This document shows, one piece after another, positions 1,248 to 9,816 of a stretch of DNA of 20,000 nucleotides (position 1 is its first letter; every line of letters starts with the position of its first letter). Below the pieces are notes generated by a model that had not been told where the DNA came from, ran no database searches, and saw nothing but the letters and a program-made list of their open reading frames with translations. The stretch comes from Balamuthia mandrillaris (lineage: Eukaryota), in NCBI GenBank assembly GCA_031835245.2, contig JAVKOQ020000049.1, positions 233,399 through 253,398 on the forward strand, in the 5' to 3' direction. The position numbers and the translations under genes are program-made.

Positions 1248-1393
1248 TAAAGTATCCAAAGCACTTTTCACCCAAGACCAACTACAGGAGGCTGAAAATG
1301 AACACAGGCTGGGTTTTCCTTCCTTAAAGTATCCAAAGCACTTTTCACCCAAGACCAACTACAGGAGGCTGAAAATGAACACAGGCTGGGTTT
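1248..1393. repeat. Perfect 69-bp direct duplication (period 77)
   Basis: TAAAGTATCCAAAGCAC...GCTGGGTTT at 1248-1316 and 1325-1393, separated by 8 nt. Confidence 0.95.
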
Positions 1394-1512
1394 ATCTTTG
1401 CCTTGCCCTTGCTCTTTAACGTCACCCTCAGTTTCACCTGAGCCCTTGTCCTCATCCTCGCTCTCATCTTCACCTTTGCTCTTACCCTTGTCCTTGCCCT
1501 TTTGCAAAAAAA

Positions 1513-1597
1513 GGAAAAGTTCCCAGAAACCTTTGTGAAAGTTTAAGGCCCCTGGAAAAGTTCCTAGAAAAATGTTTCCTTATATAGGAATTTTTCC
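1513..1597 (+). repeat. Left terminal inverted repeat of the MULE
   Basis: 1515-1597 aligns without gaps to the reverse complement of 6340-6422: 53/83 identities by hand, 24/30 in the outer part. Built of GGAAAAGTTCC / GGAATTTTTCC sub-motifs. Confidence 0.7.
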
Positions 1598-1905
1598 GGG
1601 CAAATGCCTTATAAGTGACACACTGGCTCCTATCATCCAGAGGAGCTCTCTCCTGTCTACCTTGCCAGTTTTTGCTGTAGTATCTTATCCTTTCCTTGCC
1701 GTTACTGAAACAAAAATTTCCTTTTTAAAACAGAGACAAGAGCGAAGGAAAGAAAAAAGGGTCTTGTGCAACCAAGCAGGATCAGCTGTGAAGGAGCGGC
1801 ACTTTTTAGCAGTACTTTTTCTGCGGGTGAGAGCAAAAGAGAAGGTGGTCAGGTTTTATTTGGCTCCATTTGGTTGTGGCTAACTTGTGTCTCATCAGTA
1901 TTTGC

Positions 1906-2830
1906 ATGGCTGACAACGTTTCCTCCTCAAAGAAACTACAAGAAAGAAAGTATCGAGGCGAAAGGCTGACGCCTTTAATGAGCGTGGCAGAAAGAACACG
2001 AAAGTTCAGGGAACAACAAAAGAAACAAGTTCTCAGTCGGTTCATTCCTACAACCCCGAAACACAGAGAATTAGCGGCAACAGCGTTTGAAGACAAGCCA
2101 GCTACTTTCTCTCAAACGGGCTACCGGCGACTGAAGGAGGATCACGTCGGCTATGCAGTGGTCCTCCTTATCCATGCAGTTAGAAAGGAGCTATGCACGG
2201 GCTGTTCGAAGGACATAGAAGAGCTCGCTGGACAGTTGCCAAAACAGTATAAAAAGAAGACTAACCGCGAGGAGCAGGTAACTGTTCGTCTTGGTTGGTG
2301 GTCTCGCTACCGTAAAAGCATTGTGGAAGTCAAAGGCACAAGCCATCCACTCTCCAAAAAGTGGCTAAACAAACATAAGCCGATATTTGAGAAGGTGGCC
2401 TCTCATTTGAAGCAGCAGTTTCCGGAGCTGTTTGCAAGGTACATGGAGGTAAACGTTGAAGTGGAAAAGGCTCCTGGAAAACATAATCCATTTGCTCCAT
2501 TTGGTATGTTTTTTTTTAAATTTTATCAACACACATCTTTTGTTTATTTACCTCTTGTATTTCTCCTAGTACAGCAACAATAGTTATAAATGTTAACTTC
2601 TGCATGAGTGCTCATTTCGACAAAAATGACTATAGGGGTGGAGTGACAGCAATCCTTGTTCTTGGTACCTTTACGGATGGTGGTGCTCTTGTGTTACCAG
2701 AACTAAACATAAGAATAGAAGCAAAACCTGGAGATTTGATTTTTTTAATGGTTTTGATATTAAACACAAAGTGGTAACCTCCATTGTATCTTTTTGTCAT
2801 CATGATATGCTCAGTTTTGTATTGCAGTGA
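1906..2830 (+). pseudogene. 2OG-Fe(II) dioxygenase, TET/JBP-like (exons 1906-2503 and 2575-2830; frameshift at T-run 2740-2746)
   Basis: Spliced translation: ...HNPFAPF-A-TIVINVNFCMSAHFDKNDYRGGVTAILVLGTFTDGGALVLPELNIRIEAKPGDLIF[frameshift]NGFDIKHKVVTSIVSFCHHDMLSFVLQ*. HxD at 2613-2621, GGxLxxP and PGDxIF strands, distal His at 2765. The 2OG-binding Arg (RxS) is not visible, suggesting a small deletion. Confidence 0.8.
2504..2574 (+). other. Spliceosomal intron (71 nt) in the dioxygenase gene
   Basis: GTATGT donor, pyrimidine-rich body, CAG acceptor. Phase-1 splicing (G+CA) joins the 1870 ORF in frame to the HxD exon. Confidence 0.8.
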
Positions 2831-4375
2831 ATTAATTATTAATAAAAGGAAGGTATCTCTGTTCGACTCCAAGTGAAGCAACTTTTGTTTTTTTTTTTCA
2901 TTTGTTATTTTTGATCTTTGTTTGAAATCCTTTCTTCATATATTTTATCATAAAAGGTGGAGATCTTCCTAGTCGACATAAATTATGGCCTCCAATAAGC
3001 ATTTGTTTTAGTGATTGAAATTCATTGGTTAGTTTCTGTTGATTTATGAATTATGATTTGTTATTCAAGTCCGAAATATTCGAAGTAAAAAATGGCACCA
3101 AATGTATAACGGTTATATTTCCATATTAAGATTGTATGACCTTTGAAAAAATAAGAAATAGCAGTTTGATATTTTCTTTTGTCAAACGTGAAAGCAGTAG
3201 CCCAAGTTCCAACAGAATGAAAACCACTTCTCATCAGCAGCACTATAAAGGTTGGAGCTTTGTTTCTTCTATCCCTGTCAAGGATTTACCCCTATTCATG
3301 CTTGGCTTGTCCCCTGGTGCCCCGGTTGCCTTTCAATGTCGTTGGAAAACCAAAGGGATTGTTTGGTCAAAAGACGTTTTCGCCTGGAATCAGGTGAACC
3401 CGAGAGAAGGCCCAAATCTGGAGCTCAGTGTTGGAGAGGCGAAGAGGAATACCCCAGTGCTCTCTGAAGTTGTTTGGTGCAATGACAAAATGGACTGCAC
3501 CCCGCCAGCGAGTGCCACTAACAAACGGATGAGTGCCTGCGGAAAACAGGCTCGATGGGCCATCTTTTCGGAGGATCTCCACACAGCGTGGAATTACCAC
3601 ACCGGGAGCCATGGAGAACGTTTCGCCCTCTACCACGATGTGCTGCCTGTTCCTGCTTTTCTTAAGAAGGAGATTCTTTCACGGGATGGATTGGAAACCA
3701 GTGCAGGAGGCCTAATCACTGCATCCTCTGCAAGGTGCCAGTTGGAAGCAGGGGCAATGTCTGGCTTGCCTGCTGCCATCCCAAAAGAGCTGCTGCCATC
3801 TGTGGCCAAGATTCAAGACATCATCGCATACGGAAGGAGGAAGCAGCGAGGTCAACAAGGGGAGCAGCCGTTAAGCCGCCAAGAGAGACTGCAACAAGCG
3901 TTGTCCTGAGAAACTATGTCCCCCTTCGTAGCTTGGCCTCGGCGGAGCCTCAGAGAGGGATACTTTCGCACGCAGCAGCTGCAAAGTAGTTGGATGATCA
4001 TTCTTCTGGTGCCCCGTGCAGGAGAGCTTCTGGAAATGTGGGGCCAGGACATTGTAGGGCTGGACGCAATCTGGAAGCTTTCCAAAGCCGAGCTCCCAGT
4101 GTGGGGCTTGGTAGTTGAGGATGAACTTGGTCATCTGTGGCCAGTGGGCTTCCTTATTACCAACAAGGCCAAGGCAGAGGCAATTACCTTCTTCCTTCAG
4201 CTGCTTCAAACAAAGATGGCAGCTGACTTCCCAGACATCAACTGGAACCCCATTACAATGATGGACAAGGATAGGACAATCCGAAAGGCTGCGGTGGATG
4301 CAGGTTTCTCTTTTCTTTTGTGTGAGTTTCACGTTCAAAAACGATGGAGGCAAAAAACCTTGCGTTATAAAGACG

Positions 4376-4457
4376 GTACTTTGTTGTTACCTCTTGTTTC
4401 CTTTTGTCTTTGATTTCGTTGTTACTAACGCTGCGCTATGTTCCTTTTTCCTCGCAG
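4376..4457 (+). other. Spliceosomal intron (82 nt) in the transposase
   Basis: GTACTT donor, TACTAAC branch point at 4423-4429, polypyrimidine tract and GCAG acceptor. Phase-1 join gives RYKD-D-QSAIM in frame. Confidence 0.9.
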
Positions 4458-5272
4458 ACCAATCTGCGATCATGGCTTTGTTGAAACGTGTTCAGCATGC
4501 TCCGACAGAGGAAGAGGAAGAGGAGGCGCTTGAGCTGCTTGAATCGTCGTTTGGTGACTTTTACACCTACTTCAAAGCCAACTGGTTGTCTGCTGATTGA
4601 AAAGATGCGTGGACGACCAAAAGTCGCCCTGGTTTCAGAGAAGGCCTGTACAACACCAACAACGTGACGGAAGCTTTATGGAAGAAGGTAGTGCGGCTGG
4701 ACTTCCATCAAAAAAAGGCCAAAGCACCAGAAACTATGCTGGTTACCTTGGGAGAAACGACCCTTGCATCGCACGACCTGGCGTTTCAGCAGAGATTGGC
4801 GGCCAAAAAGAAACCTAGACCTTCCAGGAGTATCCGTGCACTCTGGATAAGGCAGGCAAAGGGCTGGAAACTGGCGCAGGAAGGCTACTTCTCTCCGATA
4901 ACCAACCGTCACTTCTCCTTTGGCGAATACTACGTGTGTTTCGACCCTTGGCACTGTAGCTGCAACTTCTACCGTTGCACTGGCAAACGGTGTAAGCACA
5001 TTTTTGCGCTGAGCTACCACTTTCAAAGGGAGTTCCCACGAGAAAGCTGTCCTTTTGACCATCCACATCCTGCTTCTGTTCGAATTCCCACAGATCCTGC
5101 TGCAGTCGAAAGCGATCCCAGCGATGACAGCGACTCTGACCCTACCAATGCTTCTAGTGATGATAGCGGCCGTGTCTATGAGGACACCACCAGCGATGAT
5201 GACAAGGAGGAGGGCACCGATGATGATCATTGTCACCCAGATAAAGCGGAAGCAGCAGCCGCAGATAAAGAT

Positions 5273-5377
5273 GAGGAGGAGGAGAAGGAGAAGGAGAAGG
5301 AGGAGGAAGAGGAAAAGGAGGAGGAGGAGGAGGAGGAGAAGGAGGAGGAGGAGGAGGAGGAGGAGGAGGAGGAGGAG
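5273..5377 (+). repeat. (GAG)n/(GAGAAG) microsatellite encoding poly-Glu/Lys
   Basis: Seen directly; lies in the transposase reading frame. Confidence 0.95.
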
Positions 5378-6339
5378 GCTCATGATGGCGAAGCTGAGGT
5401 GGATGATAGTGAAAAGGAGGATCCGGAATGGAGCCAAGTATTAACACAACCTACGCTGAACTTTTCCTATGAAGAGGAAAGGCGACTAGACGAGGAATGG
5501 AACTCTCGTAGGGTTTCTCGAGGTAGACCAAGAAACACGGAGAAACATTTCGCGCTCCCAACCCGACGGAAGAAGAAACCCTCCAAGCAGCAAGAGCTCA
5601 GCAAAGCTATTTCTGCAAATTTGGAAAACAGCCGACCAAAGCAACCTCCGTCAGCCAAACCACACAACGGCAAGCCCAAAGCCACAACTGGCAAAAAGAA
5701 AGTCCCTCCAGCAACAGGCGTCAAGGCTCCCAGAAAGAACAACAAGGCAAAACCACCCACCAGCAACAAAGCTGCGTGTAACCACAAGCCGCCCACTAGC
5801 CCTGCCTCTACAACCTATGTAAAAAAGAAGACGCATGGCCATTATGGCATGAGCCCACTATCGCCGTGGAAAGGAGACGTAAGTAATCGCTTTAGCCCAG
5901 CTCCACCAGGAAGCAAGAGGACACGGCGGCCCAACCCTCGGTACCAGAATGAGGAACTAATTGTGCCACCTAAGCCAGCACAGCATGCAAGGAAAACTTC
6001 CTCCACCATCTCCATCTCCTCCTCCGTCTCCAACTCTATCTCTCCTTCTTCTCATTTTTCAGCGTCTCCCAACCCATCTCCTCTTCCTCTGCCTCCTCCT
6101 CAAGCCACCCACACTGCTTCTTCTCCCCTCCAAGTCGCTGCAACAACCACTCCCCCAGCAAACTCAACTTCCACCGTGCCAGTTGTTTCTCAGAGACAGC
6201 CCAGACGCCTTGCAAGGAGGAAAAGACAACAGCAAAAACACGTTTCCGTTACAAAATAAATTTACTTTACACCCTTTCCTTCTTGGCGACCACCATCATC
6301 AGCTGGCTGTTACTCCCGATCTCTCCTCTTTTAACGCAA

Positions 6340-6425
6340 GGAAAAATTTCGGGAATGGTAAAAATTCCTGTTGAAACCTTTACCTACCTTTGAAACTTTT
6401 ACAAAAATTCTTGAGAACTTTTACC
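6340..6425 (-). repeat. Right terminal inverted repeat of the MULE
   Basis: Reverse complement GGTAAAAGTTCTCAAGAATTTTTGTAAAAGTTT... matches the left end GGAAAAGTTCCCAGAAACCTTTGTGAAAGTTT...; begins 80 nt after the transposase stop codon. Confidence 0.7.
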
Positions 6426-6781
6426 TGTGTCGCTGCCCTTTTTTTAAGGTTTGCATAAGTAAAATGAGACTCTCTATTTTCTTTTATAAGGTTTTTTGTC
6501 TGTAAGTAGTGAGACCATAAAACATTTTACACAAATACACATACATAAACATACAATAAGTAATGAAAGATACAAGACATGGACTATAGAGGAACTAAAA
6601 GTTGTAAGTGACACCATCAAAAGTGCTAGCAGCAGCAGGGGAAAGTGAAGCTTCCCCAGATGATGATGGGGCACTAGTAGAAAGAGGGGGAACACCAAAT
6701 CGTGGCGACTTGAGGCACTGACTCACAAAGCTAATGAGGTGGGGGTTCATATCCTCGGACTTTGCCATCCGGGCATTGATT

Positions 6782-8245: not shown

Positions 8246-8425
8246 AAGGCGGTGCAAGATTGCCCTCGCCCAACTACCAGAAAGCAACTACAAAGCTTTC
8301 TCAGACTTGCAAACTACTATCGCAAGTTTATCCATCATCTCACGAAGATGGTGAAGCCCTTCACTGACCTCATGAGCCCAAAAACGAAGTTCATGTGGAG
8401 CAACAAGCAGGAACAGGTGTTTTAA
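8246..8425 (+). pseudogene. Ty3/gypsy RT thumb/connection fragment, inverted relative to the flanking pol pieces
   Basis: Plus-strand translation: KAVQDCPRPTTRKQLQSFLRLANYYRKFIHHLTKMVKPFTDLMSPKTKFMWSNKQEQVF*. Confidence 0.85.
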
Positions 8426-8710
8426 CAGGACAAGGCACACATATTTGTGGTATGCTCCTCCATAAGAAAGTGCCAATAACCACATGCTAAGTCAAACTTG
8501 GACCAGAATTTGGAGCCATGGAGGCAATTCAGTCCGTCCTCAACATTTGGCATAGGATAGGAGTCCTTCACTGTCCATTTGTTTAGCTCTCTGTAGTCAA
8601 TACAGAAACGTGGTTTTCGGTCCTTCTTGATGAGATGATCACTGGGTGTGCCCATTCGCTAACTGATTTGTGAATGATGCCCATGAGTAGCATGTCATCC
8701 GTGGCAGCAT
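8426..8710 (-). pseudogene. Ty3/gypsy reverse transcriptase N-terminal fragment
   Basis: DMLLMGIIHKSVSEWAHPV [frameshift] KKDRKPRFCIDYRELNKWTVKDSYPMPNVEDGLNCLHGSKFWSKFDLACGYWH; truncated before YxDD. Confidence 0.9.
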
Positions 8711-8951
8711 CTAGTGGTAGTAAAGAAGGGAGTGCCAGAAGCTTGAGGGATAGCACCACCAGAAAGAGGACTGCTCTGTGTACTAGAAGAAGGGGTTGTA
8801 CCAGTCTGCAGCAAAGTTCCTGACATTATTCGTCACCAAACACTGCTACAAAAGCGCTTCAAGTTTCCTCCGAAAACCCCAAGTATCCAAAAATAGGTAA
8901 TTACCTGAAAAACCGAACTTACCAAGAAAAAAGTAAGCCGATGTCACCAAG

Positions 8952-9091
8952 TGTGATAAGGCCGGTGAGGGAACAACCCAACGGATACCAACTCGTTGTG
9001 TGCAGGGAAAAGACCTTTAATAGAATGAAAGAAAGAAATATATATATACAAGGAGAGATAGGGATAGGTATTATGGGAGAGTGGTATAACA
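8952..9091 (-). mobile_element. Very short solo LTR (family A, copy 2, 140 bp)
   Basis: TGTGATA...TATAACA termini; matches copies 1 and 3. Flanks CAAG/CAAT (3/4 match). Confidence 0.75.
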
Positions 9092-9097
9092 CAATTC

Positions 9098-9514: not shown

Positions 9515-9816
9515 TATTCCCATGTTCCTCCTTCAGCTTGCCCTGCCAGCCAACGATGCTGCTTTCCCTTGAGCCAGTTGCCCCTTCATCCTGCCAACCT
9601 TTGCTCTTTGTGACACCTACTGGTTTGAAGCTATTTTGTAAATATGACGGGCTGAAAGGTGGAAGTAAGGCGCCTCCTGTTGTGTTCAAAGAATCTAGCG
9701 ACTCTTTGTCCAGGTGAAGGATAGAAGCACTACCCTTAGCAAAAACGAAAGAAGAAAAAGAAATAGAAGAAGAAAAGGAAGCGAAGAAGAACCAGCCAGC
9801 TCATAAACTAATTAGA

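What the first reader, a model, noticed from the sequence alone, without database searches (positions are those of the whole stretch)
1513..6425. Mutator-like transposon carrying a TET/JBP-like 2OG-Fe(II) dioxygenase: candidate self-encoded DNA-modification or anti-silencing system
Seen: one TIR pair encloses exactly two co-oriented, intron-containing genes. The first has a hidden second exon with N-x6-HxD-xxD, GGxLxxP, PGDxIF and a distal His. The second is a MULE-type transposase (D..D..CxxH..TNNxxE plus SWIM). Established: TET/JBP dioxygenases oxidise 5mC or thymine in DNA and are known as cargo of KDZ (Kyakuja-Dileera-Zisupton) and Plavaka transposons, mainly in fungi. Known MULE accessory genes include mudrB, Ulp1-like proteases and the VANC anti-silencing factors. 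I do not recall a TET/JBP-MULE pairing, but cannot rule out that it has been described. Inference: the element family may erase or alter host cytosine methylation on itself.
Basis: partly seen in the sequence, partly recalled or inferred. Interest (0 to 1): 0.9.

Follow-up and report, generated by a model that had tools for sequence, protein, structure and literature searches.

The report
Mutator transposon carrying a TET enzyme
A Mutator-type jumping gene in the amoeba Balamuthia carries a second gene for a TET-family enzyme that likely oxidises the methyl marks a host uses to silence such elements; this copy is broken, but sister copies have an intact enzyme gene, and the pairing extends a trick published for other transposon types in fungi.

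Summary
Confirmed and sharpened. It holds a two-exon TET/JBP gene and a two-exon MULE/IS256-type transposase. The window's TET protein matches annotated Balamuthia mandrillaris products exactly. This copy is dead: a frameshift and a 21-nt deletion in TET, two stops in the transposase, and decay mostly at CpG. Two paralogues have an intact TET gene, and 3 of 3 other TET loci have a transposase as the next accession. The intact protein folds like CcTet and NgTet1 (Z 23-24) and keeps the metal triad and three of NgTet1's 5mC-pocket residues. Likely role: oxidising host 5mC to relieve silencing; this is untested. No RNA read covered the TET gene in three partly read runs, and 3 of 6 transposases had no TET partner found. 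TET-carrying transposons are published for 11 fungal lineages (Kojima 2025), none Mutator and none amoebozoan. This scan has unchecked notes of TET cargo on MULEs and on Naegleria transposons in other genomes. Verdict: new variant of a known kind.

The parts
1495..1503 (.). left copy of the 9-bp target-site duplication (TGCCCTTTT)
   Evidence: exact match to 6434-6442; only two copies in the window
1504..1615 (+). left terminal inverted repeat, imperfect, starts with GC
   Evidence: alignment and shuffle control
1906..2503 (+). TET/JBP gene exon 1 (basic N-terminal helices and first part of the dioxygenase fold)
   Evidence: tblastn; reproduces annotated isoforms P0004-P0006 exactly
2504..2574 (+). 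TET gene intron, GT..AG, 71 nt; annotated alternative acceptors at 2569 and 2635 give truncated products
   Evidence: from annotation, not confirmed by RNA reads here
2575..2830 (+). TET/JBP gene exon 2: HxD at 2613, distal His at 2765; broken by a 1-nt slip near 2740 and a 21-nt deletion near 2775 that removes the 2OG-binding Arg
3217..4375 (+). MULE transposase exon 1: Cys/His N-terminal region, D (4063), D (4264), CxxH (4321); premature stop at 3907; start codon taken from paralogue P0160
4376..4457 (+). transposase intron, GT..AG, 82 nt
   Evidence: matches models P0162 and P0008
4458..6259 (+). MULE transposase exon 2: catalytic E (4670), SWIM finger (4955), acidic and low-complexity tail; premature stop at 4598
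6328..6433 (-). right terminal inverted repeat
6434..6442 (.). right copy of the 9-bp target-site duplication

Best explanation
This is a decayed copy of a multi-copy Mutator-like DNA transposon of Balamuthia mandrillaris that carries a compact TET/JBP gene inside its ends, and the intact enzyme is predicted to oxidise 5-methylcytosine in DNA, which would likely loosen the host's CpG-methylation silencing of the element. Shown: the ends and TSD, both genes, family membership by profile and fold, paralogous TET-transposase neighbours by accession, and CpG-biased decay. Inferred: (1) the host methylates CpG on repeats; (2) the enzyme flips 5mC into an NgTet1-like pocket and hydroxylates it with Fe(II), 2-oxoglutarate and O2; (3) the oxidised bases are lost by dilution or repair, or are not read as silencing marks; (4) this helps transposase expression or end access, probably with little sequence specificity, since no separate DNA-targeting domain was found.
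For: The 9-bp TSD and TIRs enclose both genes. 3 of 3 other family TET loci have a transposase as the next accession on a contig of equal length: KAL6077719/718, KAL6058068/069 (locus tags 015047/015048), KAL6040453/452. Intact P0007 and P0001 keep H213-x-D215, H264, R274 and S276. The model of P0007 (pLDDT 92) matches CcTet (Z 24.0, rmsd 2.6, 248 aligned), NgTet1 (Z 22.9, rmsd 3.0, 222) and TET2 (Z 19.9), with AlkB-type enzymes at 15.1 or less. A family profile hits NgTet1 and CcTet at about 1e-17, TET2 at 2e-4 and other 2OG enzymes at 0.013 or worse. In that alignment D218, F280 and H282 fall on NgTet1 D234, F295 and H297 (numbering inferred from spacing); D234 sets the preference for cytosine over thymine (PMC4678852, passages). 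D218 is kept in 81 of 86 aligned relatives. Of 39 best-supported element differences from run X1's contigs, 29 are C>T or G>A and 23 of those are at CpG (one ambiguous), against 16% expected, P=8e-14. Flanking repeats have CpG o/e 0.15-0.34 against 0.59 in the element. The related Acanthamoeba methylates CpG on young TEs and silent genes (PMC12344493, section read).
Against: No activity was measured. No read covered the TET gene in RNA runs X14-X16 (about 1.9 Gb each, 3-5% of each run; 20, 16 and 6 reads laid on the whole stretch, at flanks and low-complexity spots); there was no control for how much of those runs is this organism. The element itself decays at CpG, so protection is at best partial. 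3 of 6 annotated transposases (P0008, P0009, P0161) had no TET neighbour found. The TET copies are 94-99% identical, too young to show selection. Equivalents of NgTet1 N147 and R224 were not established. No 5hmC was detected in Naegleria despite its TETs, and in Acanthamoeba DNA transposons are not enriched for 5mC overall (PMC12344493). Balamuthia methylation and DNMT genes were not examined directly. The MULE profile score is below its curated cut-off.
Confidence: 0.55

Rival explanations
1. The TET gene is a passive passenger (Pack-MULE-type capture) that was amplified with one young subfamily and gives the element no benefit.
For: All TET copies are 94-99% identical. The more diverged transposases P0008 (84% to P0160) and P0009 have no TET neighbour found. 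No RNA read covered the gene. MULEs are known to capture host fragments (PMC6446971, passages).
Against: It is a whole gene with a full active site, not a fragment. No near donor was found: the next Balamuthia TET is 36% identical and did not group with it in a quick, poorly resolved tree.
Confidence: 0.22
2. The enzyme is functional but writes a different mark: it oxidises thymine or stops at 5hmC, or acts on RNA, to tag or protect the element or to alter host chromatin broadly, rather than to erase 5mC.
For: NgTet1 has minor thymine activity (PMC4678852) and thymine or RNA were suggested as its in vivo substrates (PMC12344493). CcTet, the top fold match, also acts on 6mA (PMC11040006, passages). 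Phage TET/JBP proteins are equally close in fold.
Against: An Asp at the D234 position favours cytosine and blocks 6mA (PMC4678852, PMC11040006). No partner glycosyltransferase gene lies in the element.
Confidence: 0.18
3. The transposase is a KDZ or other already TET-linked type, so the pairing is already published.
For: The MULE score is below cut-off. The fold prediction failed (pLDDT 33.5). No transposase tree could be built, for want of relatives.
Against: 9-bp TSD, against 8 bp for Zisupton and Dileera and 7 bp for Kyakuja and hAT7. Hits to MULE, ZSWIM RNaseH-like and IS256 models; none to KDZ at E<=0.1.
Confidence: 0.05

Closest known systems
TET+ DNA transposons of fungi (Kojima 2025, PMC12730594; earlier Iyer et al. 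2014, known through that paper and recall)
   Same: A TET/JBP gene inside a TIR/TSD-bounded DDE transposon; upstream and co-oriented as in some hAT7 families; the same untested anti-silencing proposal.
   Different: The carrier is Mutator-like, not among the 11 lineages listed (MuDR appears twice, neither with TET; no hit in the supplement text held), and the host is an amoebozoan.
MULEs with anti-silencing or chromatin cargo: VANDAL/Hiun VANC, Phytophthora MuDR with SET (PMC6446971, PMC12730594 passages)
   Same: Same superfamily; an extra ORF tied to epigenetic marks.
   Different: The cargo is a catalytic DNA-base dioxygenase, not a sequence-specific factor or a histone methyltransferase.
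NgTet1 (Naegleria) and CcTet (Coprinopsis)
   Same: Compact TET fold (Z 22.7-24.0), HxD..H..R core; D234, F295 and H297 equivalents present.
   Different: Only 16-18% identity; activity untested; N147 and R224 equivalents not established.

Membership tests
MULE/Mutator | 8-11 bp TSD | tested here: met
   exact 9 bp; criterion from PMC6446971; one insertion site only
MULE/Mutator | terminal inverted repeats | tested here: met
   about 110 bp, imperfect, above all 300 shuffles
MULE/Mutator | DDE transposase of MULE/IS256 type with CxxH (motif recalled) and often SWIM | tested here: met
   motifs located; PF10551 E 1e-5 to 2e-3, below cut-off; IS256 E 1.4e-7
MULE/Mutator | phylogenetic placement inside MULE clades | not tested
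   only Balamuthia relatives were found
KDZ (Kyakuja-Dileera-Zisupton) | 7-8 bp TSD | tested here: not met
   9 bp here against 7-8 bp
KDZ (Kyakuja-Dileera-Zisupton) | KDZ transposase and CxC domains | tested here: inconclusive
   no such Pfam family listed at E<=0.1 for 4 of 4 transposases; absence of a hit does not exclude
TET/JBP dioxygenases | PF12851 above curated cut-off | tested here: met
   P0001 48.2 and P0007 48.8 bits against 34.9; the broken window exon alone scores 28.7
TET/JBP dioxygenases | HxD..H iron triad and 2OG-binding R | tested here: met
   met in P0007 and P0001; the R is lost in the window copy
TET/JBP dioxygenases | TET fold rather than AlkB or prolyl-hydroxylase fold | tested here: met
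   Z 19-24 to TETs, 15.1 or less to others; same order in Foldseek
5mC-oxidising TETs | 5mC pocket residues (NgTet1 D234, F295, H297, N147, R224) | tested here: inconclusive
   3 of 5 matched by alignment; N147 and R224 not established
5mC-oxidising TETs | measured oxidation of 5mC in DNA | not testable with these tools
   needs an assay

The most novel reading that the evidence does not exclude
The element carries a self-serving catalytic eraser of CpG methylation, an enzymatic counterpart of plant VANC, and is the first named, genome-anchored member of a large unnamed clade of compact TET/JBP enzymes (99 representatives at E<=1e-10, nearly all environmental) that may ride transposons across soil protists, making TET-based counter-silencing a eukaryote-wide transposon strategy rather than a fungal one.
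Probability: 0.25. Interest if true: 0.8.

Novelty: new variant of a known kind. Interest (0 to 1): 0.55.

Why it matters
It adds the Mutator superfamily and an amoebozoan host to a list of TET-carrying transposons published only for fungi, which suggests repeated capture of a methyl-eraser where hosts silence repeats by 5mC. The family is young, has intact TET copies and shows a CpG decay signature, so the open question of whether transposon TETs protect their carriers can be tested by comparing copies. The clade is also a source of small (about 270-290 aa) TET-like enzymes.

Tried and rejected
No whole genome was held, so no DNA-level copy census or second TSD was possible. The run search listed no RNA holder (no evidence either way); 13 of 18 listed rows held part of the stretch, in 5 studies. 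A second read-laying on other runs gave no result, so the introns are unconfirmed by RNA. Summed contig depth (323 on one TET contig against 19-50 on others) was not used as a copy number. The transposase fold failed and it has no PDB sequence relative. The protein atlas did not complete. Viral contigs: no relative for the TET alignment or the transposase; L005 and L006 are chance matches in phage gene regions. Phage records gave only 26-29% matches over at most 44% of the protein, 8 records. Metagenome scan: 4 of 84 pattern matches were relatives, all about 1.1 kb gene-length contigs without neighbours. Of 16 top non-self relatives looked up, 1 was a named-genome protein (Balamuthia P0011) and 15 were JGI or Logan sequences on contigs of 0.9-3.5 kb. 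The tree was a quick run on 132 of 152 rows (20 short ones dropped), 53 of 129 branches open, with no named references; it does not resolve origin. The exon-2 comparisons were out of register and are discarded; one search is the correct one. No gene relic follows the second TIR-like stretch. Literature searches for the pairing: (0 papers), plus 17, 61 and 73 for context; none showed TET with MULE or TET in Balamuthia, but only top listings were seen, the library is open-access only, and Repbase, Iyer 2009/2013/2014 and bioRxiv supplements were not seen.
Full report
Observation. The window holds one DNA transposon from 1504 to 6433. Its ends form an imperfect inverted repeat of about 110 bp that scores 54 against at most 35 in 300 shuffles. 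The 9-mer TGCCCTTTT lies directly outside both ends and nowhere else in the window. The surroundings are repeat debris: reverse transcriptase, integrase and chromodomain pieces and a partial LSU rRNA.

Host and gene models. Exon 2 of gene 1 found a Balamuthia mandrillaris protein at 95% identity. Three annotated isoforms of locus QOT17_007068 are reproduced exactly from the window by one donor at 2504 and acceptors at 2569, 2574 and 2635, so the window is very probably that locus. Three acceptors hint that the annotation used transcripts; this is an inference. The productive intron is 2504-2574. The transposase runs 3217-6259 with an intron at 4376-4457.

This copy is dead. The TET gene has a one-base slip near 2740 and a 21-nt deletion near 2775 that removes the 2OG-binding Arg; a deep contig of run X1 has neither lesion. 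The transposase has stops at 3907 and 4598. One search showed 40 of 298 differing places, chosen by support; 39 lie in the element. Of these, 29 are C>T or G>A in the window copy and 23 are at CpG (one, at 1787, depends on its neighbour), against about 16% expected (P=8e-14). Flanks have CpG o/e 0.15-0.34 and the element 0.59. This is the pattern of methyl-CpG deamination on a younger element among older repeats. Methylation itself was not measured. Acanthamoeba, a relative, has repressive CpG methylation on young TEs, though its DNA transposons are not enriched overall (PMC12344493, one results section and passages read).

A family, not an accident. Four TET loci of this family are annotated. 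For 3 of the 3 other than the window's, the next accession number, on a contig of the same length, is a family transposase. P0007 and P0001 are intact TETs, 99% identical. Against this, 3 of 6 annotated transposases (P0008, P0009, P0161) had no TET neighbour in my searches; I could not read their DNA, so loss, absence or missing annotation are all open.

The transposase is Mutator-like. It has D, D, CxxH, E and a SWIM finger, hits PF10551 below cut-off and the IS256 model at E 1.4e-7, and no KDZ family at E<=0.1. MULE TSDs are 8-11 bp (PMC6446971, passages); those of the TET+ KDZ, hAT7, IS3EU, PHISTA, EnSpm and Plavaka families are 2-8 bp. The fold prediction failed and no tree was possible.

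The cargo is a TET/JBP enzyme. Intact copies pass the PF12851 cut-off. A search of 1.84 billion representatives gave 1032 hits at E<=0.001 and 99 at 1e-10; 79 of 86 scanned hit Tet_JBP at E<=0.001. A profile of 86 sequences ranks NgTet1 and CcTet far above other 2OG enzymes. The model (pLDDT 92) matches CcTet at Z 24.0, NgTet1 at 22.9 and TET2 at 19.9, then AlkB types at 15.1 or less. D218, F280 and H282 align with NgTet1 D234, F295 and H297; D234 binds the N4 amine and sets the cytosine preference, with minor thymine activity remaining (PMC4678852, passages; PMC11040006, passages). N147 and R224 equivalents were not established. The nearest non-Balamuthia relatives are unnamed environmental proteins on short contigs, phage relatives are distant, and the tree does not resolve origin.

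Mechanism. Most likely the element encodes an enzyme that oxidises host 5mC and so eases its own silencing (0.55). Rivals are a neutral passenger (0.22), a different substrate or mark (0.18) and a misclassified transposase (0.05). The main results against the favoured reading: no read covered the TET gene in three partly read RNA runs with the same species label, without a control for organism content; the element still decays at CpG; and 5hmC was not detected in Naegleria.

Novelty. Kojima 2025 (PMC12730594; abstract, introduction, sections 3.2.1 and 3.4, first part of the discussion, passages, and a term search of 193,142 characters of supplement) describes TET+ transposons in 11 lineages of three fungal groups, function unvalidated, none MuDR. 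A MULE survey never mentions TET or dioxygenases. Searches showed no TET-MULE pairing; Repbase, the Iyer papers and closed journals were not seen. A Balamuthia genome preprint says its TEs await annotation (10.1101/2025.02.25.640156, two passages; supplements closed). Two further papers (10.1101/2025.08.14.668559; PMC4738411) were seen as passages and added nothing decisive. Unchecked notes from this scan report TET-like cargo on MULEs, there fused to a second domain, and TET+ transposons in Naegleria; no note matched these sequences. Verdict: new variant of a known kind, interest 0.55.

Noticed in passing
window 15406-15473: Second copy of the element's left subterminal stretch (84% over 69 nt to 1553-1620), beside a 31-nt inverted pair (15274-15304, 15376-15406); no TET or transposase relic follows. 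Possibly an older relative's end.
   Followed up: partly
P0011 and P0163 (Balamuthia QOT17_004295, QOT17_021502): A second two-copy TET/JBP family, 97% identical to each other and 36% to P0007, with HxN in place of the HxD iron ligand; context unknown, perhaps also transposon-borne.
   Followed up: partly
window 8422-8655, 9718-10170, 10498-10854; repeats 663-805, 8949-9094, 17054-17192: Debris of chromodomain-bearing LTR retrotransposons (RT, chromo, integrase) and three copies of a 140-bp repeat.
   Followed up: no
window 10278-10536 and 11297-11553: Inverted duplication of about 250 bp (88%) around an integrase fragment.
   Followed up: no
window 18010-20000, minus strand: Partial eukaryotic LSU rRNA directly beside transposon debris.
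   Followed up: no
window 1248-1398: Tandem duplication of about 75 bp just left of the insertion site.
   Followed up: no
P0008, P0009, P0010, P0160: Public names are wrong (BYE1, guanylyltransferase, HMGB3, RP1L1): all are this transposase. Models P0160, P0010 and P0009 skip the CxxH segment.
   Followed up: yes
P0015 residues 15-110; P0134: P0015 has an N-terminal part that by eye resembles a rolling-circle Rep (recalled motifs; no Pfam hit at E<=0.1) ahead of its TET domain; P0134 joins a WRKY19-type zinc finger to TET.
   Followed up: no
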